A DNA stretch of 64,000 bases, taken from positions 1-64,000 of the forward strand of contig NMRA01000400.1 of NCBI GenBank assembly GCA_002633005.1. The letters run 5' to 3'. This DNA is from Phoronis australis. Its lineage: Eukaryota; Animalia; Phoronida. Each line of letters starts with the position of its first letter. Within the stretch, counting starts at the first letter, position 1. The notes under the pieces are model-generated. The model had not been told where the DNA came from. It did not search any database and saw only the letters and a program-made list of their open reading frames with translations. The position numbers and the translations under genes are program-made. Positions 2,613-57,779 of this stretch are shown piece after piece.

Positions 2613-2614
2613 AT

Positions 2615-2632: not shown

Positions 2633-2687
2633 TTTACTGACGGTAACGAGGTGTGATAAAGTGGACTGTTGGAAGTAGCGACTCACT

Positions 2688-3780: not shown

Positions 3781-3819
3781 GGAAGTGTGCTAACCCTGAA
3801 CGCGCCGTCAAAGGAAGGC

Positions 3820-4110
3820 TGCGTCTGAAGGAGGGTTATGTTGGCACGAAGAGAGTCTTAGTATTGAGAGACACAGGCTGAACGACCACTGTGGTTCGAT
3901 CCAGTCTAGTCAAACCAGGAGATATGACCTGCCGGAAGTGGTCATGCGAGTTGGCGGACTCTACCAAGAGGTGACTGTCTGTAGCCAAGATCAACATCAA
4001 GACACCGTACTACACGGGAGAAGTGTTTGCAATGTGTATGGAGCATCCAGTGGCCGATTTGATTATCGGGGACATACCTGGCGCCTTGGACCCAGGCGAT
4101 GTTGAGCGAC
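3820..4110 (+). pseudogene. Aspartic protease domain
   Basis: VLVLRDTG* catalytic motif with DLIIGD downstream. Confidence 0.8.
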
Positions 4111-6168: not shown

Positions 6169-6549
6169 TTAAAGTTGGCTAGAAAAAGTCTGTGCAATGC
6201 ACAAGGTATTCACAAGCATTACTACGACAAGAAGGCCAGAGGTAGTCAGTTTCAAGTGGGACAAAGAGTGTTGGTATTACTTCCCACAGAACACAACAAG
6301 CTTACTCTGCAGTGGAAGGGGTCTTATTAGATTACAGAAAAAGTCAATTGTATGGACTTCAGAAACAATATGAACGGCAAGATTAAGATCTCCCATGCCA
6401 ATCTGTTGAAGGCGTATCACAAACGCGAAGCTAACAACATCACAGGTAAAGATGAAGCGATCGGTGCTGTGTTAATTGAGGAGTGTGTGACTGACGAAGC
6501 GACCCTTCTTGATGGAGGCAGTTTAGAGCTTCGACCGGAGGTTCACAGT

Positions 6550-7832: not shown

Positions 7833-7918
7833 AGACGGATACTGAGTCAGATTATGTATGCCAGATGATTTTGTGTTAGAAAATTATAAGAGTAATTTTC
7901 TCTTTGGCAGGGGTGTGT

Positions 7919-8089
7919 TGTCAGAATATAGACTGACAGTTTTAGTTGTATTGTTTTGTTCTGTTTTGTTTTGTTGCTCTGTTTGATTGGCATGACCCCT
8001 GATTTAAGTACCAGTCTTCAGTCAATCGTCGCTATTAGCACCGGTCTGTAACAACCTGTGCCCACCCACACACGGGGAAAAACGTGACA
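7919..8089 (+). repeat. 3' LTR, internally deleted (171 bp), preceded by a PPT
   Basis: Matches 5' LTR 1892-1970 joined to ~2525-2612; G-rich ggcaggggtgtg immediately upstream. Confidence 0.9.
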
Positions 8090-34940: not shown

Positions 34941-37178
34941 TTCTGCATGCAAAAAAAGATACTTTACAGACATTTTTAGCGGTGGGGCAGGAGAGTGCAG
35001 AGGTTTGGTCGNTGTTAGGAATTTTCGATTAGTCTGTTCGTTTGGTTTCTATGACAAGGTATCTTTGTAAAAAAATTGAAGTTTTATTCGTCTTCGTCAC
35101 ATTAAGCAAAAACTAGGCTTTTATATCAAAAATCCTAAAACTATTTTTGAGATTGATGACTAAATATTAAGTTTGGAAAGTTTCAGCGAAATCCATCCAG
35201 CCGTTTTTCAGAACTAAAGTTGCTAAGTTCAAATAAAGTCGATTTGCCGAAGCCGAGAAAAAGCCGATTAAACTGGGACAAGTGAAAATCTCAAAGTCTT
35301 CGGTTAATTATTCGGTAAAAACTTGTTTTCGGTTCACATAACCTATACAATCCTTAACTATGTTAGCTATTTCAACGTTCACTCGCAATGTCAACTGATT
35401 TTGCAGTGCGTAACTAACTTAATTATCATTAAAACCTCAAATAGACTTTTAGTTCCCAGCCAACTTTTACTGTTGTTTACCCCCTACTTTCTACATGTAA
35501 GTAGGTCACAGTTCATAGCCTGTACACGTCACGGGATGGGAGACTGGTACGAAACCAAGTAAGAAATGGAATACAAAAATCGAATCAGTGGCTAAAGTAT
35601 GTCGTTAGCATGAGGTCGAAACATCGAAATGTCAACTTATTATTTGAATTAAGGAATTAGGGTAAGGATTTATCTCTTTTCACAACTTTCTGTGTTCATG
35701 ACCAGAAAGGCCTGAGGCGACTCGTAGCATTCATTTTCAACGCCAACGGTCGCATACATGTAGACGCACAACTCCCTTTGGATCAAAATTACGTTTTGTC
35801 TTTGTTTTCCCCGGCACCATTATATCGTAAGTACACCTCGTTGGCTCAATGTTATGGCGACTTTGTGAATGAAAGGACTGAGGGTATACGAAGCTGTTCT
35901 GTACCTGGCGGGAGATTCGCTTTAATTGACAGCCCTTTAACCTTTGACCTTGGTTAAGTAGTAATCAAATATCCACGCTGTTGTGCGGTTCCAAAGTGGT
36001 TCTGCAAAATCTTTTATTTCTCGCTACGCGTTAGGTATTTTGTATTTGAAGTTCCCCGAGAAAGAAGATAAGGTATTTTGCTAGACACAAATGAAATATT
36101 GTAAAAATGGCCAGCTTTTGTGAATAACGTTGGAGATAACCTTAAATGCTCGTATTAAACATCACTGCTTCAGGCGGTTTTTGTTCCATGCAATCCACTT
36201 TCAATGAAACCTAGTTCAAGTCATTTTGTTAAACTTTTTGCGCTTTTCTAAGAATATTGGGGGTCCATTCCACGTAAAATCGTTGCGTGTTTTGTATGTC
36301 CGTTACCAACTATTCTAATGACCCGGTGACCGCAGGCGACTAGTCGTTAGTTGTCGAAAAATGTCTGCCTCCAGAGTTCAACTTAACGCAATTTTTGAAC
36401 TTGCACATCATCGTGGAACGATCCCCAGTTCTTTGAAAAGGAATGTTTTCAACAAGTCAGAGACAATATTGCGGTCTGAATTCAGTTGTTTGTGGCAAAC
36501 TACAGATGAATGTAGTTATATTTACAAACAATACAGTACTTGCCAATAGTTCAGAAATATTCAATGTTTGAAGTTGGTGCACGCCTAAACAAGATTTTAA
36601 ATCTCAACCTCCTCGTTTCCAAAAAGTAGGCCTACTCTGCATCCACAGCTCCCAAGACGTTCCTCGCAATATCGTTAAAGCTGAACATAGGAGCCCCTTT
36701 AAAATCCTTCTGGAACAGCACTGGCCGTCCACTATGGAAAGCCCGATGACAACACTGAACCATAAATGAGATGATTTTAAAATCTTTGAGGACCATGATG
36801 TATCGGGAAATTGCTAAACATGTATTGTGTCCTCAATAAATAAATTTAAAAATATTATTATTAATAATAATAATAATAACGATAACTAAAACGAAGCGAT
36901 AACGAGTAATGCTAGTGATAGCAGTAACATTAATAGCAGTGACAGTAGTGATAGTAATGTAATACTAATAAAAATGATAATAGGTAGCCAAATTCATGTC
37001 GTGTCAGCCCGTCTCATTCCTATAGAAGATGTATACGAAAAGCGCAGCCCAAAAGGGTGTTTTTTCACAGAAAAAAATAACAAAATGGTGCCATTTCCGA
37101 AAAAATATATCTAAAAGGTGGCTTTCAGTTGCAACAGTTGTTACATTTTACGAAATTATTACATTTTACGGCGTATCA

Positions 37179-37394
37179 GGGCGCACACGGCTGAGCCAAG
37201 AGTTGCGACAATTCGGCTATCTCCCTGAGTTACCTAACGATCCCGTATAAGGTCTTCAGCTTAGTTCGTGTCTAATGGAGCTTAGGGGCTAGAAACCCGA
37301 CTCAAGGGTCCAACGGTGTGCCTCAGTGGGACTCGAACCAACGACTTTGAATAGAGGAAGCAGACACTTATCCCATCAGGCCATACTGCATCCG
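37179..37394 (-). mobile_element. tRNA-derived SINE
   Basis: Minus strand has A box TGGCCTGATGG and B box GGTTCGAGTCCC, then cccttgagtcgggtttctagcccct, which is shared with other copies. Confidence 0.75.
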
Positions 37395-38186
37395 GTAAAC
37401 AGCCTAAATCAAGTTTGTCTTTGTGAAGATAGACATGCAGCAGCTTTAAAAATAGACCGGGGATTTCCCTTGCTTTACAAACGTGCAAATTAATAAATTT
37501 GTAATGTGATTAAAAATCATCCCACCAACTATCCGTTTACGTCACCAGAGCACATTAACACCGGTAAAGCTTATTGTGAGATCAAAAGTAGATTAAGTCC
37601 TTTGAAGAATGTCCTTAAGAACGCTGCCACAGACACACATCACCTATCAATTTGTTGTCCGTCCATGACGTCATGAAGTGACAATCTCCGAGGTAACTAC
37701 CTGCAGGTTGTGTTGTTGCAGAGTTGTCACGTTGGTTTGACGTGGTTTTTCTATCAATTATGCGCCTCTTCAAATATTAATCTGAGGCTGTTTAACATGT
37801 AGTCTCAATTCTCCTTGGACAGACAAAGTCTGATGGTTTCGATCAAGTTTTGGAGATATACGATGCATTCCGTCAGTGACCCTCCAACCAAAAGTTTTTT
37901 TGGTCTCTTTCAAATCTTCGAGCTTGTATACGGTGTTTATATATAATTCGTTAGTGACTGGTCGAATAAGCTGAAACAATAGACTTTCACGTTCGGTGAC
38001 GTGTGTATGCTCATAAATTATTCTATGCTTGATTTGTTCTGATGTTTTTTCTTCGTAAGTCAACAGGATCGTTTAAATGCTGAGGATATAGCTTTGTTCT
38101 GATGTTTTCTCTTCGTAGGTCAACAGGACCCGTTTAAATGCTGAGAATATAGCTAGCTGCATGCTAAAGTTTGGTCACTCGCCGTC

Positions 38187-38815
38187 ATGGGAGTACCCAT
38201 TAGCATGCTTAGATGTGGCTGGTTCACGGAGGACGACATAGAAACATGGCTGAAAAGCGACTCCAAGCCCAAGATATTTGGGGAAAAGGGCAATATGTCG
38301 TACACAGAATACGCCAGAAAGGTAACGGTGCACTTGTCTTCGATGAAGTTAGACGAAAAACACAAGGGAAAAATAATCTGCTACGAGAAAGTTAAAGGGG
38401 ACCGTATATCGCGGACGAATTACGTCGATAGAGTCGACGAAGGAGTACTTGTCACCAATACGTCCAAGAACCTATTCGGTCGTGCATTCTTGCGAATGAG
38501 TCCAAAGCTCTATCCATTAGGTGTTCAGAAGCATAGTGAATACGGCAAATGCTTGGTTTCAGCGCCAGCAAAAATCATAACAATTTCTGTAAGATTAGAC
38601 GGCATTCCACAGCGTTTGTGTCGGCAGCATGGTCACACTCAGCACGTGCCCGATTCTTTCTTCTCGTGGTTAGTCTCCAACGAAAACGAGACCGTAACGA
38701 TAGACATTCCGATATGGAATCCAGGTGAACCCACGTCAAGTATAACACCAGATATTCATAGTGTAGGTGATAATAAGTCAATTGACGGCACGCCTCGTGG
38801 AACACCAACTGGACG
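38187..38815 (+). CDS. Gap-truncated duplicate of the 316-aa orphan ORF
   Basis: Protein identical to 42569-43519 for ~209 aa, then ends at the N at 38816. Confidence 0.7.
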
Positions 38816-41561
38816 NGCGGGTACTCCCCACCACTGAAATTGTCTGGCAGTGACCAATTTTGATACAATGGATGACGTAGCAGGTATTGAAGGCAGTTTT
38901 AAGTGGTTACCAGAAAAGTTGATCTAGCTCAATTTTTTAGTGCAATTCTCTTGGCTCCCCTGACCACACCCACCAGAGCGAACCTGCCAGACGGCCATTT
39001 CCAAGCATCAGGATACGCATAGAGCACTGTGGCACCAAAGAAAATTGGTTACCTTTTCATGCCCAAAAAAGCTCTGGGATCCCGGTCTATAACCCCTCCG
39101 TCGATTTTAATGAAACCCTTTTAAACGAAAACTTCACCAGTTACCTCAAAAATGGTGTTAGGAATTTTCGATTAGTCTGTACGTTTGGTTTCTATGACAA
39201 GGTATCTTTGTAAAAAAATTGAAGTTTTATTCGTCTTTGTCACATTAAGTAAAAACTAGGCTTTTATATCAAAAATCCTAACAGCACTTTTGAGATCGAT
39301 GACTAAATATTTAGTTTGGAAAGTATCAGCGAAATCCATCCAGTCGTTTTTGAGAACTAATGTTCCTAAGTTCAAATAAAGTCGATTTGCCGAAGCCGAG
39401 AAAAAGCCGATTAAACTGGGACAAGTGAAAATCTCAAAGTCTTCGGTTAATTATTCGGTAAAAAATGTTTTCGGTACACATAACCAATACAATCCTTAAC
39501 TATGTTAGTTATTTCAACGTTCACTCACAATGTCAACTGATTTGGCAGTGTGTAACTAACTTAATTATCATTAAAACCTCAATAGACTTTTTTCCCAGCC
39601 AACTTTTACTGTTGTTTACCCACTACTTTCTACGTAAGTCACAGTTCATAGCCTGTACACGTCACGTGATGGGAGAGTGTTACGAAACCAAGTATGAAAT
39701 GGATTACAAAAATCGAATCAGTGGCTAAAGTATGTCGTTAGCATGAGGTCGAAAAATCGAAATGTCAACTTATTATTTGAATTAAGGAATTAGGGTAAGG
39801 ATTTATCTCTTTTCACAACTTTCTGCGTTCATGACCACAGAGGCCTGAGGCGACTCGTAGCATTTCGTTTTCAACGCCAACGGTCGCATGCATGTAGACG
39901 CACAACTCCCTTTGGATCAAAACTACGTTTTGTCTTTGTTTTCCCCGGCACCATTATATCGTAAGTACACCTCGTTGGCTCAATGTTATGGCGACTTTGT
40001 GAATGAAAGGACTGAGGGTATACGAAGCTGTTCTGTACCTGGCGGGAGATTCGATTTAATTGACAGCCCTTTAACCTTTGACCTTGGTTAAGTAGTAAAC
40101 AAATATCCATGCGGTTGTGCGGTTCCAAGGTGGTTCTTCTAAATCTTTTTTTCTCGCTACGCGTTAGGTATTTTGTATTTGAAATTCCCCGAGAATGAAG
40201 ATAAGGTATTTTGCTAGACACAAATGAAATATTATAAAAATGGCCAGCTTTTGTGAATAAAGTTGGAGATAACCTTAAATGGTCGTATTAAACATCACTG
40301 TCTTCAGGCGGTTTTTGTTCCATGCAATCCACTTTCAATGAAACCTAGTTCAACAACTTTTTGCGCTTTTCTAAGAATATTGGGGGTCCATTCCACGCAA
40401 AATCGTTGCGTGTTTTGTATGTCCGTTACCAACTATTCTAATGACCCGGTGACCGCAGCCCACTAGTCGTTAGTTGTCGAAAAATGTCTGCCTCCAGAGT
40501 TCAACTTTACGCAATTTTTGAACTTGCACATCATCGTGGAACGATCCCCAGTTCTTTGACAAGGAATGTTTTCAACAAATCAGAGACAATATTGCGGTCT
40601 GAATTCAGTTCTTTGTGGCAAACTACAGATGAATACAGTTATATTTACAAACAATACAGTGTTTGCCAATAGTTCAGAAATATTCAATTTTTGAAGTTGG
40701 TGCACGCCTAAACAAGATTTTAAGGCTCAGTGTCCTCGTTTCCAAAAAGTAGGCCGACTCTGCATCCACAGCTGTCAAGAAATTCCTCGCAATAGTGTTA
40801 AAGCTGAACATAGGAGCCCCTTAAAATCCTTGTGGAACAGCACTGGCCGTCCACTTTGGAAAGTCCGATGATAACACTGAACCATAAATGAGATGATTTT
40901 AAAATCTTTGAGGACTATAATGTATCGGGACTTTGCTAAACATGTATTGTGTCCTCAATAAATAAATTTAAAAATATTAATAATGATTTTAATAATAATA
41001 ACGATAACGAAAACGAAGCGATAACGAGTAATGCTAGTGATAGCAGTAACATTAATAGCAGTGACAGTAGTGATGGTAATGTAATACTAATAAAAATGAT
41101 AATAGGTAGCAAATTCATGTCGTGTCAGCCCGTCTCATTCCTATAGAAGATGTATACGAAAAGCGCAGCCCAAAAGGGTGTTTTTTCACAGAAAAAAAAT
41201 CTCCAAAATGGCGCCATTTCCGAAAAAAATATATCTAAAAGGTGGCTTTCCTGAATTTCCGAAACAAAAGTGAGAGAATTTTTACACAAATTAGTCTCTA
41301 AATGGGTCACTTTTTTGTTCGAGCCCACTCTCTAAACGGGTCGGTATTCAAATTTATTTGGGCGGCACTCCTCATCTAAAAATATTCCAGTACCCCTCGG
41401 CCGTGTCAGACACCACTTGTTCGTGATTTTGGTAATTTTCTTTGCAATATGACGTGGGTTTCGTAAAATGTAACAATGGCACATTTCTCGCATGTGCGTC
41501 ATTGACGTAAAATGCAACAGTTGTTACATTTTACGAAATTGTTACATTTTACGGCGTATGA

Positions 41562-41774
41562 GGGCGCACACGGCTGTGCCAAGAGTCCCCACAAGTCGGC
41601 TATCTCCCTGAGTTACCTAACGATCCCGTATAAGGTCTTCAGCTTAGTTCGTGTCTGATGGAGCTTAGGGGCTAGAAACCCGACTCAAGGGTCCACAGTG
41701 TGCCTCAGTTGGACTCAAACCAACGACTTTGAATAGAGGAAGAGACACTTATCCCATCAGGCCATACTGCTTCC
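41562..41774 (-). mobile_element. tRNA-derived SINE (counterpart of 37179-37394)
   Basis: Same A/B boxes and body. Confidence 0.75.
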
Positions 41775-42568
41775 GGTAAATAGCTTAAATCAAGTTTGTC
41801 TTTGTGAAGTTAGACATGTAGCAGCTTTAAAAATAGACCCGGGATTTCCCTTGCTTTACAAACGTGCAAGTTAATAAAGTTGTAATGTGATTAAAAATCA
41901 TCCCACCAACTATCCGTTTACGTCACCAGAGCACATTAACACCGGTCAAGCTTATTGTGAGATTAAAAGTAGATTAAGCAAGTCCTTTGAAGAATGTCCT
42001 TAAGAATGCTGCCACAGACACATCACCTATCAATTTGTTGTCCGTTCATGACGTCATGAAGTGACAATCTCCGAGATAGCTACCTGCAGGTTGTGTTGTT
42101 GCAGAGTTGTCACGTTGGTTTGACGTGGTTTTTCTATCAATTATGCGCCTCTTCAAATATTAATCTGAGGCTGTTTAACATGTAGTCTCAATTCTCCTTG
42201 GACAGACAAAGTCTGATGGTTTCGATCAAGTTTTGGAGATATACGGTGCATTCCGTCAGTGACTCTCCAACCAAAAGGTTTTTTAGTCTCTTTCAAATCT
42301 TCGAGCTTGTATACGGTGTTTATATACAATTCGTTAGTGACTGGTTGAATAAGCTGAAACAATAGACTTTCACGTTCGGTGACGTGTGTATTCTCATAAA
42401 TTATTCTAAGCTTGATTTGTTCTGATGTTTTCTCTTCGTAAGTCAACAGGATCGTTTAAATGCTGAGGATATAGCTTTTTTCTGATGTTTTCTCTTCGTA
42501 GGTCAACAGGACCGTTTAAATGCTGAGAATATAGCTAGCTGCATGCTAAAGTTTGGTCACTCGCCGTC

Positions 42569-43519
42569 ATGGGAGTACCCATAAGCATGCTTAGATGTGG
42601 CTGGTTCACGGAGGACGACATAGAAACATGGCTGAAAAGCGACTCCAAGCCCAAGATATTTGGGGAAAAGGGCAATATGTCGTACACAGAATACGCCAGA
42701 AAGGTAACGGTGCACTTGTCGTCGATGAAGTTAGACGAAAAACACAAGGGAAAAATAATCTGCTACGAGAAAGTTAAAGGGGACCGTATATCGCGGACGA
42801 ATTACGTCGATAGAGTCGACGAAGGAGTACTTGTCACCAATACGTCCAAGAACCTATTCGGTCGTGCATTCTTGCGAATGAGTCCAAAGCTCTATCCATT
42901 AGGTGTTCAGAAGCATAGTGAATACGGCAAATGCTTGGTTTCAGCGCCAGCAAAAATCATAACAATTTCTGTAAGATTAGACGGCATTCCACAGCGTTTG
43001 TGTCGGCAGCATGGTCACACTCAGCACGTGCCCGATTCTTTCTTCTCGTGGTTAGTCTCCAACGAAAACGAGACCGTAACGATAGACATTCCGATATGGA
43101 ATCCAGGTGAACCCACGTCAAGTATAACACCAGATATTCATAGTGTAGGTGATAATAAGTCAATTGACGGCACGCCTCGTGGAACACCAACTGGACGATT
43201 GTCACGTAAAGGGCGCTGGGTCTCCACTTTGTCGCACGGTAGCGCATGTGCTAAAGCGTTCCATGACTTCATCAACTCGATTCCGAACGGATACCACGAA
43301 ATAGTCATAGAAGTCGGTTTCATGTATAATTGCGACGAGCTGCTGTTGTTACCGCTCGAGAAATATAACTCCTCGGTGGGTCAAAGCGGACATGTTTGGA
43401 TGAAGGAATACTTCAGCGGGACAGAGTTCGTAACAGCAGGTGCTTCAAAGGAAAGGGGGTTGAAAGCGTATCCTATTGTTCTTGCGAGTGGCACACTTAA
43501 ATTGCACAAGTCTGAATAG
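42569..43519 (+). CDS. Intronless 316-aa protein of unknown function, possibly bacterial-like
   Basis: Long clean ORF in repeat-rich DNA; strong Kozak context GCCGTCATGG; in-frame upstream stop; acceptor-like ttttctcttcgtag upstream; AATAAA near 44103 and 44191; the two differences seen versus the duplicate are synonymous. Confidence 0.85.
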   Translation: MGVPISMLRCGWFTEDDIETWLKSDSKPKIFGEKGNMSYTEYARKVTVHLSSMKLDEKHKGKIICYEKVKGDRISRTNYVDRVDEGVLVTNTSKNLFGRAFLRMSPKLYPLGVQKHSEYGKCLVSAPAKIITISVRLDGIPQRLCRQHGHTQHVPDSFFSWLVSNENETVTIDIPIWNPGEPTSSITPDIHSVGDNKSIDGTPRGTPTGRLSRKGRWVSTLSHGSACAKAFHDFINSIPNGYHEIVIEVGFMYNCDELLLLPLEKYNSSVGQSGHVWMKEYFSGTEFVTAGASKERGLKAYPIVLASGTLKLHKSE

Positions 43520-45193
43520 AGTTTTCAAGATTTCATTAATTTCCTTAACCATGCATATTTTGTAAAGTGCTTTGGGTGAAATGAGGGGTGCTTTTTCAGG
43601 AATGGTCTTGATAAAAGGGTACCAGACCCGGTTTTGGATTATTAACAAATATTCAAAACGTCTTTCCTGTCTATTTTTGTGAAATAATATAATACTATGT
43701 AACCATCGACAACCTATATGTGACACAGAGAGTGTGGGCTTTCAGTTGAATCCTGCTTATATCACTCAAGTGGTTGGCAGGTGACACAACGATGATTGTT
43801 TGAAATCACTAAAACTAGGTTTAGTATCCTTTCAAGGCAGGTGAGGTGTTTGAAGGAATGTTCCTTTGCTCTGCCAAGTCTGAAAAGAATTTCTCCTCCT
43901 GAGCTCTACGTACAGGACATGTATGTCCCGTGAATGTCCTAAATTAGTACATGGTCAGCTCGTGGTCACTCACTAGGACATTAGTTTCCTTCTGGTGGTA
44001 TCTTGTCGTACACTAATACAAACAGCTTGACAAAGAACATACAGAGTGACATGGTCAACCTAATGTGTAGATCTAGGTCCAAACTATATGTGAAATCAAG
44101 CTAATAAATGGATCCTCAAAGGCCTTTATTTTCATAGCGAACTTTATTCCATCCAACCAAATCATACTGTCCAAAGCAACTCAGTGTACAAATAAAGAAT
44201 TGTTTCCACGTCACGTGACACCCTGCACTGAGCAAACAAAGCAGCTTATTTTACATATAACTATCTTTGAACAAGTCTCATGTAGTAATCAATTGAATTT
44301 ATATGTCTCCGTGGAGAATCTACTTTCATCCGTGTTCTCACAGACAAATGTGTGACTTCATTCCACCAGGTGGTGCGTCAGTTAACATAAGCCTTCCATG
44401 ACTAAATACATCAAATTTAAACTTAATTTTGACTATTTTTGCAATTTTGTACAATGCCATTATGACGGTCTAACTCATCCCAGGTTTAGCGGTACGTATG
44501 GTTAGTGGTAATACTGAGGGACTGCCCACCTTCAGTTATTGATCCAAACTTATGTAGACAGACAACCTAATTTCACTAAAATTCTACGTTTTCTAAAATT
44601 GTGTTATGAGCAACAATAAACAGTGTTAAATTGGGGCTAACATCGGAAGGTTATTTCTCAGAAATGGGTAGCGTGATTTAAATTTAAGATAGTTTGATAT
44701 ATGCAATCTACCCCAAAATTCCTTTATAGAATTGCATTTTAGATGTTTCAATTTTACATTAGGTGTTTTCAGTCGAAAATTTTGATTCTTACACAAAAAT
44801 CAAAACGTTGCGCGAGGCAAAGACCAATCAATCACTAAAGAAGAAATATTTAATCAAAAGATTTTTGACTCTTTTGTTTTGCTATGAATATAATTTTCAC
44901 TTTTTTGCCAACTATAACTAAAATGCATGACCACTAACAGGTTGTTCTAATATTTTAAAATTAAATTATATACATTTTTAACTCCAGAACGTACTTGCTT
45001 CAATTCAGTTTTGTACCTTAATACACAAACAGGCCGATACACGTATTCCTAATCCTAACGAAAATTCAAACATATGACCTTAAACATATACGGTATTTTA
45101 TTTGGTCAATAAACTCATAAAAGTAACCAATAAATTTCACGCTGACAATAAAATTTTCATCAACTGGTACATGAATTTTGATTCATGCCCCGG

Positions 45194-45392
45194 TTATCCC
45201 TTTCTGCTACAAACTTCCAGGACTTTATACGCGGCAAGAAAATTCATTGGGTAACAGGCGCAATAGTTGCGATAGGCATAGACAAAACGAGGCCTCATCT
45301 CTCCACGGCATCTGGCCCAACGCTTCTGTCGCCACCGATACTGGCGGCACTGTCCCCACAAACACCGGCAGCGACACCAACGGCAGCTTTGT
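45194..45392 (-). CDS. Terminal exon of a secreted Cys/Arg-rich peptide precursor
   Basis: Acceptor ttattcttcag; phase-2 reading QSCRWCRCRCLWGQCRQYRWRQKRWARCRGEMRPRFVYAYRNYCACYPMNFLAAYKVLEVCSRKG*; minus-strand AATAAA at 45097-45102. Confidence 0.8.
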
Positions 45393-45664
45393 CTGAAGAA
45401 TAACAGAAAACAGCACGTTTGATTTCATACCATGTATATACAATGCATTATACAGGTCTTCATTGGTTTGACAAAGAAGGTCTTTAGAACGTATTTCGTA
45501 TTACGCAGATCCTAATTGCACAAGACAAAGAACGTCAGAATAATGCACTGTATAAAGGTCCTCATTTCACAAGACAAAGACAGTATGTAAAATGCACTGC
45601 GTATTCTACAGATCTCATTGCACAATACACACATTGAACTTCTTTTTAGGGCCAAAGGTAAGCC

Positions 45665-45740
45665 GCATCCCTTCCAATTAGGAATACTGTGACCACTATA
45701 TTGTTTCAAATCTACCCCTGCCAAGAGTTATAAAATGCCA
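45665..45740 (-). mobile_element. Tyrosine-recombinase (DIRS/Ngaro-like) remnant in an intron
   Basis: AGVDLKQYSGHSI-(frameshift)-IG resembles the YR motif YSGHSFRIG. Confidence 0.5.
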
Positions 45741-45897
45741 CTGCTTAATCTCAACTTCTGTCACAAAAATAAGGTTTTGAGACTACTTTCATTTGGTCTC
45801 AAATTGCTCCTTATTGAGATTAGAAGTGGTTTCTCAACTATGTAACTACTGACAGTTCGTTATGTCTTGCCACACAAGGCTCAGTATCTTGGCTTAC

Positions 45898-45972
45898 CTT
45901 CGACGAGTCACTTCGTCGGCTATACGTGTAGGTATAGACAGAAACAAACCACTGCAAGTATGTCCAAAATTT
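45898..45972 (-). CDS. Internal exon (75 nt) of the Cys/Arg-rich precursor
   Basis: Acceptor attatcag, donor AAG|gtaagc; phase 2-2; encodes NFGHTCSGLFLSIPTRIADEVTRR. Confidence 0.75.
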
Positions 45973-46097
45973 CTGATAATCTGACCAAGGAACACGTTGA
46001 AGCGTCATTAAACATATTACGTGGTCTAATTTGAAAGACTCTTGTTCTTTGGAGCTACAATGGTTGTCAAAGTACATGGATATCGGCAAAACCGACT

Positions 46098-46312
46098 TTC
46101 CATTACGTTGAGACATTCCTTTGTAAGAAAAGAGTGGAATTCCATTACGTTGAGACATTCTTTTGTAAGAAAAGAGTGGAATTCCATTACGTTGAGACAT
46201 TCCTTTGTAAGAAAAGAGTGGAATTCCATTACGTTGAGACATTCCTTTGTAAGAAAAGAGTGGAATTCCATTACGTTGAGACATTCCTTTGTAAGAAAAG
46301 AGTGGAATTCCA
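46098..46312. repeat. 42-bp minisatellite, 5 nearly identical copies (intronic)
   Basis: ttccattacgttgagacattcctttgtaagaaaagagtggaa x5, with no spacers. Confidence 0.97.
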
Positions 46313-46642
46313 GCATTCCGTGTGTATTTGTAAACACTTACGCATTGAAAATTGTATGTTTTTCTACACTTGGCCAAAATTCACTTGATGGTGCAGAGGA
46401 AAACCGTGTTAACTTTTCACTCTCTGAATAGTATTTGACAAAAGGAAATTGGATGCGCGTTTTGTAAACCCAAGACATTCTCGAGAAACTTGTGGACCCA
46501 AACAGTTGACACTTATGAAACAAAAATGTGAACTCTGCATGTATGTATAATGCGACGCTTTAGCCTTACCGATCCAACTACTCGGTGGAATATATTTCGT
46601 AATTTTATTCGAGCAAGGTTCCGAATTTACTTTCAAAACCCT

Positions 46643-46886
46643 GCGCGCACCCATGGGGGAGGGGGCAGCTCGGAGATACATGTAGAAACAGGTCCCCCTT
46701 TGGCGAAGTGGGCAAAAAAGTCCGCCTCAGAGAAATAAAAAGTCCGAGAAAACGACACAAAAGACCACCAAAAAGGCGCGAAAGCACTATTCATAGCCCG
46801 GGACGCGCTACCCCAGTTTTTTAGTCCCCGTTTTTTTGTTACTAAAAGGTCCACATTGGTAAAAATTCGAGCTTCCCCTATATTTT
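46643..46886 (+). repeat. Copy of the ~240-bp interspersed repeat family
   Basis: Aligns with 48709-48948 and with the reverse complement of 88-305. Confidence 0.75.
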
Positions 46887-47111
46887 AGGCTGGGTGTGCG
46901 GATAGAAACATTCACTTGTATAATTTTGTGTGGTTATGCAGAACATCCCTTTTCGAGCAAGAAATCTGCTTTACGGATCGAGGTCTTGTTTACTTGCATG
47001 GACACGTAAATAGAGCAAAAATTGCGTTTGACGTTAATGTATTCAAGTTACACACTGCTTCACTAGCGCCACCAAATGAACTTCGAGATTGTTACAGCAG
47101 GAAAGACCTAC

Positions 47112-47452
47112 CCAGGGTGGTTGCAGTGGGTGTTCGTGAATGGGTACAAGAAACGGCACAGCCTGTTACCGATAAACTGTTGAGAAATTCTGATAGCGGT
47201 GGCACAGCAATGTCCGTATATACACCTTCCAATTTGTGCCAAATCCCTGCCGCTAGGTGTCCACCTTAGTTTCCTTGTTGCAACATCGGAATCTTTCGAG
47301 TCGTCCCCGATCTCGTCGTTTAAGGAGTCACCAACGCCTTCGCCACTCAGCGCGTTGGGTTGAGCACGTGCATTAACGAGTAAGGCGTCATTTTCTAAGT
47401 TCGACTCCAGCTGACTCACAGCAGAAGCCAAGATGGCGACGGAACTGATAAC
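47112..47452 (-). CDS. Exon encoding signal-peptide end, acidic propeptide, furin site and mature N-terminus of the Cys/Arg-rich precursor
   Basis: Acceptor atttgtag, donor GG|gtaggt; VISSVAILASAVS-QLESNLEND...DDSKDSDVAT-RKLR-WTPSGRDLAQIGRCIYGHCC...THCNHPG. The initiating exon was not located. Confidence 0.8.
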
Positions 47453-47739
47453 CTACAAATATTTCAATTAAGTTGTGCCATAAAAAATAGATTGTTGGCT
47501 TTAGGAAATACACTTGGACAACAAAAATCACCAATTTCCCCAAAAAGTATGGGAATGACTCCAAACAGCGTCTGTGTTACTGCTGTCCAAGGTAAAAAAC
47601 GTTAACATGCATTAAGTCGTTGCTTCAGATAGTATCAACACTTTCACTTAATTCCCATCTCCGGTGGTCCAAATATATGATACGCATTTTCCGACATCTG
47701 CATGTATAAATTTGCTTTAAAACCTTGTTTGCTCTTTTC

Positions 47740-49860
47740 CACCCGGTAAGAAAGCATTACCGTCCTGGTGAAAAATATTACCGCCCTGGTGGGAAATGTT
47801 ACCGTCCTGGTGGAAAACATTTCCACCTGATTGGAAATGTATTGTTTTTACACGAACTTTGATCACCTAGGATTGCTGGCATGGCCATATACGGAGCGAT
47901 ATCATCACGTGGTGTGATACTTCACATTAAATCGCTTTAAGTAAGATACATGTATTTCTAACTCCCTGTTAGACTCAGAATTGATCCCCATGTGTTTCTC
48001 AAATCTCTCACATTGCTAGCGCAATCTCTGGTACGCTTGATTACCTTCCACAAGATTGACGGAAGCAGGAATGGTATGACTGACAGGTACCATAATCAAG
48101 GATTCAAACATATGGACATTATCTTGTTGCAAACGAATCATGGCCGCACTATCAGTGTTAACACATTTGAGACGCATCTTAAAAACTCGATACCTATTTA
48201 GGCGAAATACCAAACATGACAGAGGTGATATTTGCCGAACGACAACTGTCAAGAACTGCTTAGCAAAGATACTAAGGCAAATGAAGTAGTAACATACACA
48301 GCAGGAAACCGTGCGCCAGGTGTTTCATTTCTTGGACATTGAAAGGAGTGCAGTTTCGATGGCAGAAAAGATCAGTTAGGCAAGACTTGCTGCGACTTTT
48401 CTGTATCGACAGGAAATTCATACATGTCGGAACTGTTTGGCGGTGAGGAGTCGCAGTTTACGAAGCATCATCAGGGTAAACTCGATATCTTACGTGGCTT
48501 TCTTACGCGTGCAGAACATATACCAAATAATACAAAGAACACTTTGACTTGTTGCGTCATGAAAATGACCCTTACCTGCCAATCAACAGCCTGACCGAGG
48601 CCAGTGGACCTTTCGTACGGTTTCTAAATTTCGTTGATAATTACTGACTAAGTAGGCTGAATTGCAATTACTGCATATTTGCGGTGTACTCTTTTTTAAC
48701 TTAACTAAGCATGCGCGCACCCAGGGGAGGTGGGGATACGGGTGGCTCCTTACCCATTTGGCGAAGTGGTCAAAAAGGTCCGCCTCAGAGGAACAAAAGT
48801 CCGAGAAAACGAGACAAAAGTGCGCTAAAAAGGCGCGAATGCACAATTCACAGCTCTGAACGTGGTACCCCATTTTTGTAGTCCCCCGATTTTTTGTTAG
48901 TAAAAGGTCCACATTGTCAAGAATTCGAGCCCCTCTATATTTTAGACTGGTTGGTCGCATGCTAAGCATTGGTTTTCATCAAAAATATATTACAGCGATC
49001 GGAAAAACGCTACAGAATCCACGATTAATAAATCTAGCCGCTTGTTGCATCGAGGAGCACTCATTGAAACCGGTGATTAAAGTCCGTCGGTTAAAAATCC
49101 AACTGCATAAAAATCAAACAGCTTAAGCAACACGAATTTAAAGCGGCCTCCTTTGTACATGCAACACCGGATTCAAGTTTTTCTTTTTTTGAAGAACTAA
49201 ATTCTGTAACCCAATGGCAAAAACAGCAATTACGTAAACTGAGGTGCGTTTTAATGGTGTCTTTTTCTTGCTTCGGCTGTAGTGCTACTGTCACATGCTG
49301 AGAATGCGTCAGTTTTTATGTAAAATATTGTGACAGAAGATTTAGTTCCGTTTTAAGCACAATTTTGGCGCCTAAAAGTTTGGAGAAGTAAACAGTGTTC
49401 GGAACAGGCCAAGGAGCGGGCGTTCAAGGGCAACAATGCTGCAACAAGATTTATTTAACAAAACGTTCAATTTTGCAACTTCTTCTTCCACACCTAGGCT
49501 TATTTAAAATTTAATACAGTTTGAAAGGGGAATGAATGAACTATTCGATAAATGTAGCAACAAGCCCTGTTTACCTGCACATCATTTCGACTTAAAAATG
49601 AGTTGCACTGACAAGTGATCCAAAAAAGGGCTAAGTGAAGTTTCCTATGATAAGTAGAGCTATATAATTACATGCAAAATAATAAAGCCATTAACCATGT
49701 CAAAGCCAAGTGAAATTAGAATTTTAAAGTCCATTGCTATCACCATAAAGTCTTCGCGATTCATCACTTGGCGATGTAGGTACAGTTAGAAGTCATGTGC
49801 CAAGTGGTAGTGTTTTCACCCGAGTGGAAATGTTTTCAACCCAAGCGGTAACACTTCACA
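47740..49860. mobile_element. Decayed DNA element bounded by inverted 21-bp subterminal repeats
   Basis: Tandem ttaccgtcctggtggaaaacatttccac near 47750-47830, with an inverted counterpart near 49810-49858. Confidence 0.4.
48709..48948 (+). repeat. Copy of the ~240-bp interspersed repeat family
   Basis: Aligns with 46643-46886. Confidence 0.75.
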
Positions 49861-49891
49861 CCAACAATTAAATAAAATAAAATAATGACAT

Positions 49892-50645
49892 TGTCAGAAT
49901 ATGGTCTGACACTATTTTTAGTTGTATTGTTTTGTTATTCTGCTTGACTGGCATGACTCCTGAGTTAAGTACAGTGATGATGTAATTTGTTTACTACAAA
50001 ATAGTGTGGAACTTTCTAGAAGACTGAGGTCAGAACAGTGATGATGTAATTTGTTTACTGCAGTATAGTGTGGAACTTTCTAGAAGACTCTAGCATGACA
50101 GTGATTAGTGCAGTCTGGAATATTCTAGAGACTAGTATATGTTTGTAAAATGGTTGGGTAGATTCAGGAAAGTTCTAGAATGTGCTTGTCGTAAAGTTCC
50201 AGAACAATGCATTAGGCTATAAATACACAAGCACGGGTTTGTGTTAGTGAGATCAAGTCGGGAGATCAAGTCAGTTCAAGAGAAGACCAAGTAAGTTCAA
50301 GAAAGTTAATCAGGAGAACTACAGTTGAGTTTCAGTGAAGAGAATCAGCAGTTACAGCGATAGTCAATAGAGAGCCAGCTATAGAGACAGCAGGTCATTG
50401 AATCGACGAGTGTAACAGTTACTGAACGTGTCTCAGAAGTTCATCACAAGTCAAGGCTTCGCAGCACTGGCTGGAGCATAAACAGACATTACGTCGGGCG
50501 TTTTGTTTGAGTAGGCTTGCGAACGCACGGTCGGGATTAATAAAGGATTAACTCGAACCAGTCTTCAGTCAATCGTCGCACCGAAAGCTATTAGCACCGG
50601 TCTGTAACAACCTGCGCACACCCACACATGGGGAAAAACGTGACA
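49892..50645 (+). mobile_element. Solo LTR of the Gmr1-like family
   Basis: Colinear with 1892-2612; TGTCA...TGACA ends; perfect 5-bp TSD GACAT. Confidence 0.96.
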
Positions 50646-51303
50646 GACATGATTTTTAAAACGTTGGCGAGATTTTTTCAAAATGTTCCCAAGAATTTTT
50701 GAAAAAGTTGGCAACATTTTAGTATAATACTTAACGATTTTTTGTCCTTGGCAACATTCAAAAAAAGTTGACAATTTTTTTAAAGTATTGTCAAAGTCTT
50801 AAACGTTGATGTTGATATTTTCATGATCTTGGAGTGTAAAACTGTGTTGAATTTCATTCGCCTTGGGATTCCACAGTAACGACCAAAACAAAAGGAACAT
50901 TTGTAAATGTCCGAAAGAATGCACGACACCTCTGACCACCTCAGTTACAGCTAAAGCATGCAATTGCAAAACTGATCCACGTTCTTGTTTCTCATCCTCA
51001 CTTACACAATTTATGTGCGATAGTCACAATACACATGTTCTACTAAGCAGAGAGTACCGAAAGATTTCAAGTCGTGTGTTGGCAAAATTAAGCTACAAGA
51101 ACGTCACACCCAGCTCTTTCTCGGAATATCTCGAAGAAACAAGGCTGGAAATTAGAGGAAACAAATTTAAAAACTTTCCTCGAACGAGACACCCTGCACG
51201 AGCGAGCTTATTATTGTGCAACGCTTGGTTGTTTCCAAGTCGTATTTTCATGTGTCTGATTTGGACGTTTTACTGGGAATTGCATTGTTTTTGCAAAGCC
51301 CTG

Positions 51304-51729
51304 TGTCCGGTTGCATGAAACAGTCCCTAATAGGGACTCAACTAAGTTCACTAAAACCTAAGGCGTATTTTTGGACTTGTGAAAACATCGATTGCCCTTT
51401 CTTGTATTGTTTTACTTTCATTACTAAATCAACTTTTGACTTTGATACATATCGAAAGTCAACTCTACGTTGAAATGTCAATATTATCGAAAATAATTAG
51501 GGATCTTTTCATGCAACACCCCCAATTTAAGGACAGAGTCCCTAATTACTTTCGATGAACTCTTGGCTCGGTTTTTAATTATATTATTAGAAAATGTCAT
51601 TTATCAAAGAGGAGCCCGTAATAAAGATGAAATGATAGAAATATATTGCACTTGTGAGTCCATAAAGACACAAATAGTAAAAAGACCTTAGTTGAGACCC
51701 TATTTGGGAATGTTTCATGCAACCGGCTA
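51304..51729. mobile_element. PIF/Harbinger-like MITE
   Basis: ~40-bp TIR ccggttgcatgaaacagtccctaatagggactcaactaag (37/40 match); CTG on both flanks. Confidence 0.75.
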
Positions 51730-52957
51730 CTGAAATCCCATATAAAATGGACTTACTTACCAAAACGAACACGTCGGTCTTCATCTCAATTGAGTAAACT
51801 AGTTTCTGGCCACATAACTCGCTTTTTATGCCGTATATTTCTACATGTACTGTAACTGCGCAATATATAAATGTACTCCAGGCGTGTCATGTGTAGTTGT
51901 TTTTTGTAGGGCTTCTTTAGCTAAGTACGCACATTTAGGTTATTTTTAATCAACTATACATTTTCTATTCTCTTCATTTTGTTGAATGTCCTATTGTTAA
52001 TTGAGGCGTTTAAAACTACACCACAGCTGTATATGAGAACAAAAATATAAACTGAAGATCATTACAATTTGTGTGACAGCAATGCCATGAATGCCTCTTT
52101 TTTGATCACGAACAAAACATAAATCATACTGCACGAACTAGGCGACAAAAGCACAAACCTAAAGAACAATAACTTCTTTAATGCATACGTGCCTTCATAC
52201 ACGACACTATAGATTGGGGCAGAAAGGGACGATAAGGGGAAAGTCGCCACTGAACACCGGGAATTTATTCTCTTTCGGGCGGAGCCACGTGTGAATGTCA
52301 TTAAAAGCAATTTGCCCAACGTAATAAATTACGACTTTTACTGCTGGTACATAAACGATAGGTGTGAGATCTGAACTGATTCATTCTTTATGAACCACAA
52401 ACAGGGTTCTTTTAGTTTCAACTTTGCCTAGACAAGTCATTTATTAAAAACGCTGCTATGACAACAATACTTTACCTAAAATCAACTTTTTAAGCAATTT
52501 TTGTACATTATATAAATATTGAAACAAAAACACAATGAGGTGGTTTACGTCAAAATAAAACTGCTAAGTGAAAGTTCTTACGCTTTTTTTAAAACTTCTA
52601 CAGCTCAGGGTCAACTGACAATCACGCTGTTGACCGCGGTAATGTAATCCCAAGATAGAGGCGTCTCTCGTTTCGCAATGGGCGATTCCGGCAAACGCAA
52701 TAAGGACAAGCTTAGCATATTAGGCATGCAAAAGGTTATGAACGATATGTTTTTGGTTATTTTTCTCCAAAACATTTTGAGCAGTATCATCAAGATGGGC
52801 CCTGAAGATGCGAACAACTGCTCCACCCAGCGGCATATTCAAAGATTATCGGAAGCTCATTTATAGGTTACAGCAACCCACTGATACAATAAATTTTCGT
52901 TCAGACAAGATATTGGCTACGCTTACTGGTTCGCAATGTGCCACAGCACAAAAAACA

Positions 52958-53063
52958 ATGGCAAATACTACTTCCGCGCAATTTTACTTTTTTCAAAGTC
53001 TTTTATTGACCGATGGTGTTCTAGTGTTAAGTGTCTTGGTTGACGTTTCCGTAAGTCACGCAG
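52958..53063 (+). CDS. Putative first exon with a signal-peptide-like sequence
   Basis: aaaacaATGG; MANTTSAQFYFFQSLLLTDGVLVLSVLVDVSVSHA; donors TCC|gtaagt (53050) and CAG|gtgagt (53063). Confidence 0.45.
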
Positions 53064-54239
53064 GTGAGTGGTACTTGACATTAGATGGTTAGGAAAAAAG
53101 ATAATGTGAAGCGTTGAGAGGATAAATTTCTTTCATTTTGTGCTTGATAATCCAGAAATCAATCGATGATGCTTTGCACAGGCGTATATTCATCTAATCG
53201 TAACCCTTAAGTTTACAAGATGCTTTTATTGCGCTCAGTATATCGTTGATATGCATTGCAAGTGCACTCCCGTTCACAACCATAGTTTGTGGGACAAAGA
53301 TGACGGACTATCGATTTGACAGGAATTATTAGCTTGAGTGACACGATGGAACTACCCATTGTTACAGTGAGCTTTTCAAACGTATTTTACAGGTCTAAAA
53401 TATACTTATATAAGTGACGAAATCAAAAAGTTTACATTACACACAAAATTTATTGTTGACAAGAGAATACAATACAATACAATACAATAACATTACAATA
53501 ATTAACTGCTTAGAGTCTAAAAATGATAAGAGACCTGCCAAACATCAGATACATCTAGAAAAATTAAAACTTAAATATAATGAAAAAGATAGATGATAAA
53601 AACGTCGTATCAACACTAAAACAAAGTTTCGGTATTAAATTTCCAAGTTTAACTAATGGCACCCGTGAAACTAAAATTGACAGTCATGCAGAGATAACGT
53701 CCATGCGCGATCATTAGTCATAGGGCAAATCGTGTGAATTTCAGTCTGGAAAGTGATTAGCCGTATGGCTGGAGCTAATTCGTGCGCAGACTGTGGATAC
53801 CTACAAGTAAAGGCAAGATTTGGCGCTACGAAAATGACAAAAGTGTTCCGGAAAAGGCGCACGAACTTCGTTGGCGGAAGCAATATCAAATTTGGTGGCC
53901 AATATACAAGTCCATCATTTTGAATATGACAGAGTGAACAAACCACTTCACGTGCATTGTAAGTGGACCAGAGAGTAATTGCTGTTAAAAAGTCGCAATA
54001 TTAAGCCATTCCCAAAATGTTCACGAATGCCACAAACTCGTTTTTCTTGAGAACCACCTAATATGCTCAGTTTCAATACCTTGAAAGGTCCGCCACGTTT
54101 TCACAAAATGCACACTTGTGTCAGTACTGCATCTATACTGTTAGTTAGCCCTCGATATACAGAAGTCTTTACATAATTTCATTAAAATTATCATTATTAT
54201 TATTATTATCATTATTATTATTATTATTATTATTATTAC

Positions 54240-55480
54240 AAGGGCATCATTATTCCCCAGTCGATGCAGCTGGAAGGGCTCAGCCAACTCCACCAAGGTC
54301 ATTTAGATGTAACAAAATGCCGAGAAAGAGCCCAAGAATCGATCTGGTGGCCACTCATCAGCAAACAGAATGAGACAGTGTACAAACAGGGCTTACCCTG
54401 TGCTCTTCACAGGCCTGAGGTGAAGGAACCTCAGGTGCCTTCATCCTTTCCAACCCGACCATGGGAAAGCGATGGAACAGACTTGTTCGAACTGAGCTAA
54501 CAAACGTACAATCCTTGTAGTAGACTACTACTCACGTTGGATCAAAGTCCAAAGACGTACTCAGACAACAGCACAATATGCTATAGAAGCCTTGAAGTCG
54601 ATCTTTAGCCCTCATGGGATTCCCGACATAGTAGTGTCTGACAATGGTCCCCAGTATTCCTGCAAAAGGTTCGAGAGATTCGCTAAAGATTACGGTTTCG
54701 TTCACGTAACGTCTTCGCCTCTCTACCCGCACTCCAACGGAGAAGCCGAGCGCCCTGTCCAAGCTGCAAAGGACATCGTGTGGAAAAATACAGAACCCCA
54801 TCTACGGTTCCTTGCATACCGATCAACACCCATTCACAACAGAAAATCGACGAGTCAACTGCTCATGTTCAGACGTATCTGAACGACTTTGCCGATAATT
54901 CCTATAGCCTTCCTCCAAAGTTCCACTGATGATCAGCCCATAAGAGCAAAAGAAGCTCAACTTAACAAAAGTAAAAAAGCGAATTTTGATCGCTGACACT
55001 GAACAGTGTCCCTCCCATTATTGGATGTTGGAGACCAGGTCTGTGTACGCGACCAAGAGAAATTCGGAGAGGGGAGAGTTCTGCAAACCCGAGGTCTTAG
55101 TTCGTCGTCACCGAATCCGGCTTTACAATTCGCCGTAAAAGATCAACCCTGATCCATGCTGGAAATATGAGTAACGCTACACCGGAATTGAAAACAACCA
55201 TCGAGACTACCCCACCACCACCTTCAACCCCGGTACTAGCTCAACTAGAGGTTAACTCCCCTCCTACTCAAGAACTACGACGCTTTCAACGTGTTATCAA
55301 ACCAGTGGACTGGCTGAATCTTTAAACATTTGTGAAGTGACAATCGTTGACTCTAGTTTCAAGGAAACACATTTGATTAATTTTAAGCACTCAGTGATGA
55401 GGACATTAACTTAGTTTAAAGTCTTTAAAGACATTTATTACTTATAGTCTTAACATATGTTCTTAAACTATCTTGGGGAG
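54240..55480 (+). mobile_element. Gypsy integrase 3' remnant (canonical, K02A2.6/Mag-like)
   Basis: LHQGHL..KCRERAQESIWWP; RPWE..GTDLF; VDYYS; VSDNGPQY; SSPLYPHSNGEAER; ends in a PPT-like ggggag. Confidence 0.85.
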
Positions 55481-56099: not shown

Positions 56100-57043
56100 G
56101 CAATTTAAAGAAGGTTGCGTTTTGTTAAAGTTGCCGAAGTTCAGCGGTAACGCCTAAGAGTGGCAGCCATTTTCTGACAAGTTTGAGGCTATTATTTATC
56201 AGAACACAAGTTTCCAGAGGTTAGTAACTTTTCATATTTGAAAAGTTTATTGGAAAGCCAGGCATTAGCACTGACGTCAAAAATCATGGACACGCCCTTA
56301 AAATGTTGGACAGTCCTTATGGCAGAAAGGAAAAACTAATTTTTCCCACATGCTAGATTTGTTAATTTTGTCTATAGCATCACAGAACGCCAACAACGCC
56401 ACCACTTTGGCGTCCCATACGATAAGCAGGGTTGGTATTTTACCGCGAAGAAGCATAAAATGTAAAAAAGAAGAGTCGGTAGTATCCGAAACAGGGGAAA
56501 AGAAGACAAAATGGCGGCGCACGTGTCGGCCATGCTTCTACGGGGTTGCCAACAGCAAAAACTCAACAAGTGAAGTTGCCAAAGATAGAATTACCACGGT
56601 TCGGTGGTGACTTAACTGCATGGAAGTCCTTTTGGGATCAGTTCACGGCAGTAATCCATGAGAACAATAGTGTTCCAGTCATCAGTCAACAAATTTTCCT
56701 ACCTTCAGAGTTTACTGGAAGACGAGGCAAAGCAAGTCATAGAAAGACTACTTCTGACTCAGGAACACTATGACATTGCGAGAAAGTTATGTCAGACAGA
56801 TACGGAAAACCAGAGAGGATTATATTTGCACTTATTGAGGCATTGTTGGCTCTTTATCCGCCACCCGTGGCGAGGCTTGACCTGCTTAGAAAAATGCAGA
56901 ACAGTCTCTTAGGACATGTAAGGAGTTTAGAAGCCCTTGGAGCAGATGGTGCTTCGTATGGTCTTATTCTAAATCCTCTCTTACTCTCTCGCCTGCCCTC
57001 GGAGCTACGGATGGAGTGGGCGAGAGACGGAGATTCTTGTAAC
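56100..57043 (+). mobile_element. Two tandem BEL/Pao gag (DUF1759-like) remnants
   Basis: LPKFSGNA*EWQPFSDKFEAII and KLPKIELPRFGGDLTAWKSFWDQFTAVIH..KFSYLQSLL..RYGKPERII..LLSRLP. Confidence 0.8.
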
Positions 57044-57779
57044 TGACCCCCAAAAGTTAGGATACAATGTTCCGATCATAGACTCTTAAGGTCACGTGAT
57101 ACATATCCAGACTCCTTAATTTCTGTTATATTTTTTATTTTGAAATAAAGATCAAGCCACACTTTTTTCTTTTACTTTAGCATTAACACTACAAATACTT
57201 TCAGTCACTCGTGTGATAACTTCGACGTTGTAGTTGCACAAGTAAAGCATTTGCGAAATTAATTCAGCGGAAAGTGGAAACAGATTGGACTTGAATTCAC
57301 TAACAAGCTAATCTTAAAACAATACAGTAGTGGTTGTGATTGCCAAGAGCTTCAAATAATCGTTTACCTGTCAATTATCCCCGAATCACGAATATATTGT
57401 GGTAAGATGGAGTTCCTAGTTGTCTCTTTTGTTTAATTTTACCGCATATGTACACATTTTGATGCTTGCTTCTAAATGTGAATCTGGTGCGCCTGTATTT
57501 CAATGCTTGAACTTGTGAACAAAGATTATACTTGGAGACAAAATATTATGCATGTTTCCCCATTGATGAACAGTGACTCACTAAAGCGCCACGTTAAATC
57601 ATAATTAGTCTTCTGCTCAATGCTGGCTGTTCAGTTACAAAGAAAATATTTATGATCCCTTGTCGAGGGATAAGGTATTTGCATATACCCAAATTAAGGC
57701 ACCTGCACCTATATGCGAAAACTTAAGCAAAAACTAAAGAAAAATACACTCTATTACTGTCTCTTAAAAATTGTTTCAG

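What the first reader, a model, noticed from the sequence alone, without database searches (positions are those of the whole stretch)
45194..47452. Hidden three-exon gene for a furin-processed, 15-cysteine, highly cationic secreted peptide (candidate new antimicrobial or toxin family)
Seen: three minus-strand exons (47452-47112, 45972-45898, 45392-45194) have canonical splice sites and compatible phases (0/2/2), followed by a poly(A) signal. They join into the hydrophobic segment VISSVAILASAVS, a ~50-aa acidic propiece, RKLR, and a 141-aa mature chain: WTPSGRDLAQIGRCIYGHCCATAIRISQQFIGNRLCRFLYPFTNTHCNHPGNFGHTCSGLFLSIPTRIADEVTRRRQSCRWCRCRCLWGQCRQYRWRQKRWARCRGEMRPRFVYAYRNYCACYPMNFLAAYKVLEVCSRKG. 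By hand count it has 15 Cys, ~22 Arg plus 3 Lys, and only 5 acidic residues. The ORF track misses exons 2-3 in this frame. Established: an anionic propiece masking a cationic Cys-rich mature peptide behind an RxxR site is typical of defensin and toxin precursors. Inference: the C..CS....SC..C...GxC...C...CxCY spacing loosely recalls macin/CS-alpha-beta peptides, but I recognise no family. An internal RRR could give a second cleavage, the terminal Gly could be amidated, and the odd Cys count may allow dimerisation. The ATG exon was not found.
Basis: partly seen in the sequence, partly recalled or inferred. Interest (0 to 1): 0.85.

Follow-up and report, generated by a model that had tools for sequence, protein, structure and literature searches.

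The report
Orphan secreted 14-cysteine cationic animal protein
A real, spliced animal gene, with a different exon set than first proposed, encodes a 187-residue precursor that is likely secreted and cut to a strongly positive 14-cysteine protein with no relative found in the searches run, possibly a growth-factor-type cystine knot serving as a defence molecule.

Summary
RNA contigs join a newly found ATG exon (51862-51761) to 47452-47112 and then directly to 45392; the 75-nt 'exon 2' has no RNA support. The corrected product is a 187-aa precursor: signal-like N-terminus, about 50-aa acidic propiece, RKLR, and a 116-aa mature chain with 14 Cys (not 15), net charge +18, pI 9.9. The odd cysteine and internal RRR, and the dimer and second-cut ideas built on them, vanish. 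No homologue was found in any library, though only single exons could be searched. The CS-alpha-beta/macin pattern is not met. Once the false exon is removed, eight cysteines fit growth-factor cystine-knot spacing (0.6% of shuffles, chosen after the fact), but low-confidence half-models do not show that fold. Two transcript variants differ at 8 listed sites, all inside the Arg/aromatic segment. Best reading: fast-evolving secreted polycationic effector, probably host defence, probably on a cystine-knot scaffold; fold and function are untested.

The parts
51761..51862 (-). Exon 1 (new): 5' leader as far as the RNA contig reaches, ATG at 51784, 8 codons that start the signal-like segment, GTAAGT donor, phase 0
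   Evidence: a contig cannot show the true start
47453..51760 (-). Intron 1, 4308 nt, GT..AG, holds dispersed repeats
   Evidence: joint in X1 contig (depth 231) and 2 reads of X2
47112..47452 (-). Exon 2: rest of signal-like segment, acidic propiece, RKLR, mature residues 1-50 with Cys14, 19, 20, 36, 47
47264..47275 (-). RKLR, minimal RxxR convertase site; predicted mature N-terminus at 47263
   Evidence: sequence; cleavage inferred
45393..47111 (-). Intron 2, 1719 nt, phase 2, GT..AG
   Evidence: joint in X1 contig; loose end
45898..45972 (-).
   Evidence: zero X1 depth and no joint; chance count
45194..45392 (-). Exon 3 coding part: mature residues 52-116 with Cys54, 57, 59, 61, 66, 79, 95, 97, 112; ends in Gly then TAA
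45281..45358 (-). Segment where two transcript variants differ (8 listed sites, 5 change a residue, none a Cys); covers the Arg/aromatic-rich region
45320..45331 (-). Internal R-x-K-R motif (mature 72-75), kept as R-x-R-R in the minor variant; possible second cut or charge patch
   Evidence: use untested
44700..45193 (-). 3' UTR, continues below 44700; AATAAA at 45102 is read through; further AATAAA at 44148 and 44130

Best explanation
A three-exon, spliced gene encodes a 187-residue precursor that is predicted to be secreted and cut by a furin-type convertase, releasing a 116-residue, 14-cysteine, strongly cationic protein that likely folds as a growth-factor-type cystine knot and likely acts as a fast-evolving host-defence effector by binding anionic surfaces. 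Shown: gene structure, transcription, composition, two variants. Inferred: signal cleavage after residue 19 or 21; seven disulfides; knot I-IV Cys20-Cys66, II-V Cys47-Cys95, III-VI Cys54 (or Cys57)-Cys97, with a finger-tip bond Cys36-Cys79; the second finger (residues 66-94: 10 Arg/Lys, 7 aromatic, 1 acidic) as the binding surface; the acidic propiece as a partial charge mask (11 acidic residues against net +18); possible C-terminal amidation at the final Gly. My odds by step: gene model 0.93, secreted and RKLR-processed 0.8, cystine knot 0.45, defence role 0.45.
For: Splice joints and exon-only depth in X1, strand-consistent reads in X2-X4. Hydrophobic N-terminus, acidic propiece, pI 9.86, even Cys count. 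Ring size would be 14 (as NGF, PMC3592873) or 11. Both putative fingers centre on Gly turns and put Cys66 opposite Cys95. Signal + pro-domain + knot is the layout of the neurotrophin/Spaetzle group (PMC3790821), some cut by furin-like proteases (PMC9427763). Effector reading: no homologue found and all 8 listed variant differences lie in 78 of 564 coding bases (P about 1e-5 under uniform placement), inside the cationic segment, with Cys untouched.
Against: Single-sequence AlphaFold of the N-half gives two helices (pLDDT 67), not a beta-hairpin; the C-half (pLDDT 50) gives a different strand pairing plus a helix. The spacing test was designed after seeing the sequence, fails at +/-1, and a loose six-Cys version matches 10% of shuffles; several families were tried. 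No CxGxC, no neurotrophin consensus, no Spaetzle-type extra Cys. Residues 6-16 have a strong helical moment. 5 of 8 changes being non-synonymous is no sign of positive selection. Both candidate cut sites are followed by Trp, and RKLR is only a minimal site. No tissue, induction or activity data.
Confidence: 0.33

Rival explanations
1. Same secreted precursor, but the mature chain has an unrelated alpha/beta disulfide-rich fold (N-terminal helices, central beta region with the CxCxC strand, C-terminal helix tied back by Cys112) and is an antimicrobial or other defence protein of a new lineage-specific family, perhaps cut a second time at R72-R75 into two disulfide-linked chains.
For: Helical half-models; helical moment at 6-16; a full R-x-K/R-R motif at 72-75 kept in both variants; no family hit.
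Against: Half-models lack their partner and any alignment; the eight-Cys knot spacing would be a 0.6-3% coincidence.
Confidence: 0.27
2. A divergent cystine-knot signalling ligand or ligand trap (hormone, Spaetzle/neurotrophin-like cytokine, BMP-antagonist-like), whose positive charge tethers it to sulphated matrix glycans rather than to microbes.
For: Same spacing and precursor layout; cystine knots tolerate much sequence change (PMC11087794); cationic, heparin-binding members such as GDNF-family ligands and noggin are recalled, not checked here.
Against: Conserved ligands normally have detectable relatives; none found; family motifs absent; localised variation between variants.
Confidence: 0.2
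3. An extended macin/CS-alpha-beta antimicrobial peptide.
For: GxC at 64-66, terminal CxC followed by a tail Cys as in theromacin (C31:C73 bond, PMC6780910), one CxxxC at 57-61, cationic.
Against: CS-alpha-beta pattern not matched; only 4 residues from the CxxxC to the GxC Cys and 28 from there to CxC, against a gamma-core of 8-16 residues and 8-12 Cys in macins (PMC5116183); the CxxxC region is modelled as strand (low confidence).
Confidence: 0.08
4. A venom or mucus toxin, or a gamete-recognition, adhesive or structural secreted protein.
For: Pre-pro layout, orphan status and local variation are also typical of these classes (general knowledge); expression differs strongly between runs (depth is a poor measure).
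Against: No paralogue cluster in the 64 kb; no toxin-family hit; tissue unknown.
Confidence: 0.12

Closest known systems
Cystine-knot growth factor superfamily (neurotrophin/Spaetzle/coagulogen; glycoprotein hormone/bursicon/DAN; TGF-beta/GDNF)
   Same: Signal + pro-domain + Cys-rich C-terminal domain; terminal CxC; six-Cys spacing; a Cys 10 before knot Cys II and a Cys 15 before knot Cys V, as in LH-beta 23-72; an N-terminal C-x4-CC like the C..CC of TGF-beta/activin (recalled).
   Different: No CxGxC, no neurotrophin consensus, no Spaetzle dimer Cys; three or four Cys packed between knot II and IV; a C-terminal helical tail with one more Cys; no sequence hit; fold not shown.
Macins / CS-alpha-beta defensins (hydramacin, theromacin, mytimacin)
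   Same: Secreted, cationic, Cys-rich, GxC, terminal CxC, tail Cys.
   Different: 14 Cys and 116 aa against 8-12 Cys; pattern not met; long acidic RxxR propiece.
Invertebrate pre-pro antimicrobial peptides with acidic propiece (big defensins, coral damicornin, Hydra periculin; the last two recalled)
   Same: Signal, acidic propiece, basic cleavage site, cationic Cys-containing product.
   Different: Different Cys framework and about twice to three times the size; no sequence similarity found.

Membership tests
Cystine-knot growth factor superfamily | Six Cys spaced to form bonds I-IV, II-V, III-VI, with terminal CxC | tested here: met
   Spacing only: (10% of shuffles for six Cys, 0.6% for eight Cys at +/-2; post hoc; not met at +/-1)
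Cystine-knot growth factor superfamily | Actual knotted disulfide connectivity | not testable with these tools
   needs a full-length model or mass-spectrometric mapping
Cystine-knot growth factor superfamily | Two pairs of antiparallel beta-strands (fingers) | tested here: inconclusive
   half-models pLDDT 50 and 67, N-half helical; fold searches uninformative
Cystine-knot growth factor superfamily | Signal peptide, pro-domain, proteolytic release of the mature domain | tested here: met
   sequence features only; cleavage itself untested
TGF-beta / glycoprotein hormone / DAN (8-residue ring) | CxGxC ring motif | tested here: not met
Neurotrophins | Consensus motif quoted in PMC2772990 | tested here: not met
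Spaetzle | Seventh Cys for the covalent dimer (PMC8637286), beside knot Cys V (PMC2772990) | tested here: not met
Any Pfam cystine-knot or defensin family | Profile match | tested here: inconclusive
   no such hit for single exons; the spliced chain could not be scanned
CS-alpha-beta / macin | CxxxC ... GxC ... CxC core with gamma-core of 8-16 residues | tested here: not met
CS-alpha-beta / macin | CxxxC lies in a helix | tested here: inconclusive
   strand in a pLDDT-50 model
CS-alpha-beta / macin | 8-12 cysteines | tested here: not met
   14 Cys against PMC5116183
Antimicrobial peptide or toxin (functional class) | Measured activity | not testable with these tools
   bench assay needed

The most novel reading that the evidence does not exclude
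Founding member of an undescribed family in which a growth-factor-type cystine knot, locked by four extra disulfides, has been turned into a polycationic defence effector whose Arg/Trp-rich second finger is a locally diversifying target-binding surface: a second recruitment of this fold to direct defence, after coagulogen.
Probability: 0.2. Interest if true: 0.72.

Novelty: new variant of a known kind. Interest (0 to 1): 0.42.

Why it matters
It gives an RNA-checked model for a secreted protein that no searched library recognises. If the knot reading holds, it extends a signalling fold into direct host defence or marks a very divergent ligand, and offers a stable disulfide scaffold with a natural variable finger. 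If not, it is one more lineage-specific Cys-rich secreted protein, which invertebrate genomes hold in numbers. It also shows how a by-eye gene model picked up a pseudo-exon that changed the cysteine count and hid the pattern.

Full report
Setting. The window is repeat-rich animal DNA (40% GC, long introns, LTR retrotransposon remains). No whole genome is held. The organism was not identified; 'invertebrate' is my inference.

Observation. Reading upstream by eye gave a candidate ATG exon at 51784-51761 with a GTAAGT donor in phase 0. Four public runs were laid on 46400-53000 and 44700-47600. Run X1 (contigs; RNA by guess, but its depth lies on exons and repeats and is zero in the unique intron bins) has one 471-letter contig, depth 231, that joins 51761 to 47452, covers exon 2 with no difference, and joins 47112 to 45392. 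The first joint is also in 2 reads of X2. The second is in 1 of 4 runs, with 26 letters on the short side, under the tool's 31-letter rule; all 26 equal the start of the last exon and the intron is GT..AG in frame. The 75-nt middle stretch has zero X1 depth and no joint in any run. X2-X4 are too shallow here (about 3 or less, first mates on + only over exon 2, in keeping with a minus-strand RNA) to exclude rare inclusion. Stop-free in-phase AG..GT stretches are common: 25 (loose donor) or 2 (strict) in this intron; 68 of 68 and 22 of 68 comparable stretches hold one. The 3' contig reads through AATAAA 45102 to beyond 44700.

Corrected anatomy. Precursor 187 aa. Hydropathy peaks over residues 3-15; a cut after 19 or 21 is inferred from the -3,-1 rule (no SignalP run). 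Propiece about 50 aa with 11 Asp/Glu and 5 Lys/Arg, ending in RKLR. Mature chain 116 aa, 13.9 kDa, pI 9.86, 18 Arg, 3 Lys, 3 acidic, Cys at 14, 19, 20, 36, 47, 54, 57, 59, 61, 66, 79, 95, 97, 112; no N-glycan sequon; final Gly. Residues 66-94 hold 10 Arg/Lys and 7 aromatic residues, and a full R-x-K-R motif at 72-75.

Variation. X1 holds two versions of the last exon (depth 147 and 60), while exons 1-2 and the 3' part are single contigs. The two differ at 8 listed sites (one more difference of the minor form from the genome is not listed), all within 78 of 564 coding bases; P about 1.2e-5 under uniform placement, assuming unbranched contigs mean no differences elsewhere, and contigs drop rare variants. 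Five change a residue (positions 63, 74, 76, 83, 86), three are silent, none touches a Cys. This is a divergent block (allele or converted paralogue), not proof of selection.

Relatives. None found; see Tried and rejected for counts. Every remote search used one exon, since the spliced chain is not a contiguous stretch, so each saw half a domain. Orphan status is therefore probable, not shown.

Fold. CS-alpha-beta: PMC5116183 (passages) defines the core, a gamma-core of 8-16 residues and 8-12 Cys for macins; PMC6780910 (passages) gives the theromacin tail bond. The chain has a GxC, a terminal CxC and a tail Cys, but the core pattern is not matched. Cystine knot: PMC4079206 (passages and section 5), PMC11087794 (passages), PMC3592873 (passages, ring sizes 8, 10, 14), PMC3790821, PMC9427763, PMC8637286, PMC2772990, PMC2586362 (passages and, for PMC2772990, sections 14-15) describe a signal + pro-domain + six-Cys knot that tolerates wide divergence and extra cysteines. 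A loose six-Cys spacing fits the RNA model but also 10% of 200,000 shuffles; an 11-ring version 2.3%. The patterns were chosen after seeing the sequence. Against: no CxGxC, neurotrophin consensus or Spaetzle dimer Cys, and alignment-free AlphaFold models of the halves show two helices for residues 1-50 (pLDDT 67) and a strand bundle plus helix for 52-116 (pLDDT 50); their fold searches are noise. Likenesses to TGF-beta/activin, GDNF ligands, vWC and pacifastin are recalled, not tested. PMC3527400 (passages) added nothing on the sequence. I put the knot at about 0.45.

How it most likely works. Inferred: ER entry, seven disulfides, convertase cut at RKLR, release of a rigid polycation whose Arg/aromatic segment binds anionic surfaces; the propiece would mask only part of the charge. 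Lack of relatives and variation confined to that segment favour an interface under ecological pressure, hence host defence over a conserved hormone; matrix-tethered ligand, unrelated alpha/beta fold, macin and toxin or gamete protein remain as rivals with the odds given.

Verdict. Real gene, corrected model, no family. New variant of a known kind (pre-pro, Cys-rich secreted effector). Interest 0.42; 0.72 if the knot-as-defence-effector reading (probability 0.2) is true.

Noticed in passing
window 38157-38837 and 42539-43519 (+), within duplicated blocks 35013-38815 / 39156-43197: Tandem duplication (94-97% identity) carrying a 326-codon open frame with no Pfam hit near cut-off and 0 of 1119 homologue candidates; the first copy matches 220 of 226 residues and ends near an N at 38816. 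Unexplained; may be a mobile element or an orphan gene.
   Followed up: partly
window about 1892-8092: Decayed LTR retrotransposon: gag-like, integrase-like and reverse transcriptase/RNase H frames (RVT_1 E 2.7e-24), with end pieces similar to each other.
   Followed up: partly
window 49892-50645: A 759-bp element 85% like 1892-2612, probably a solo LTR, sits in intron 1 of the gene; related copies are transcribed.
   Followed up: no
window 51846 and 51815 (-): Two out-of-frame upstream ATGs in the leader reached by the RNA contig: 1 codon and 9 codons, the second stopping one base before the main ATG; possible translational control.
   Followed up: no
window 46695-46896, 48753-48953, 84-306: Copies of a short dispersed repeat (about 200 bp, 73-84% alike), abundant in RNA reads from other loci.
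   Followed up: no
window 46098-46312: 42-bp tandem repeat, 5.1 copies, 98% matches, in intron 2.
   Followed up: no
window 54186-54929 (-), 56302-57046 (+), 58661-60628 (+): Further retrotransposon remains (integrase-like and gag/pol-like frames).
   Followed up: no
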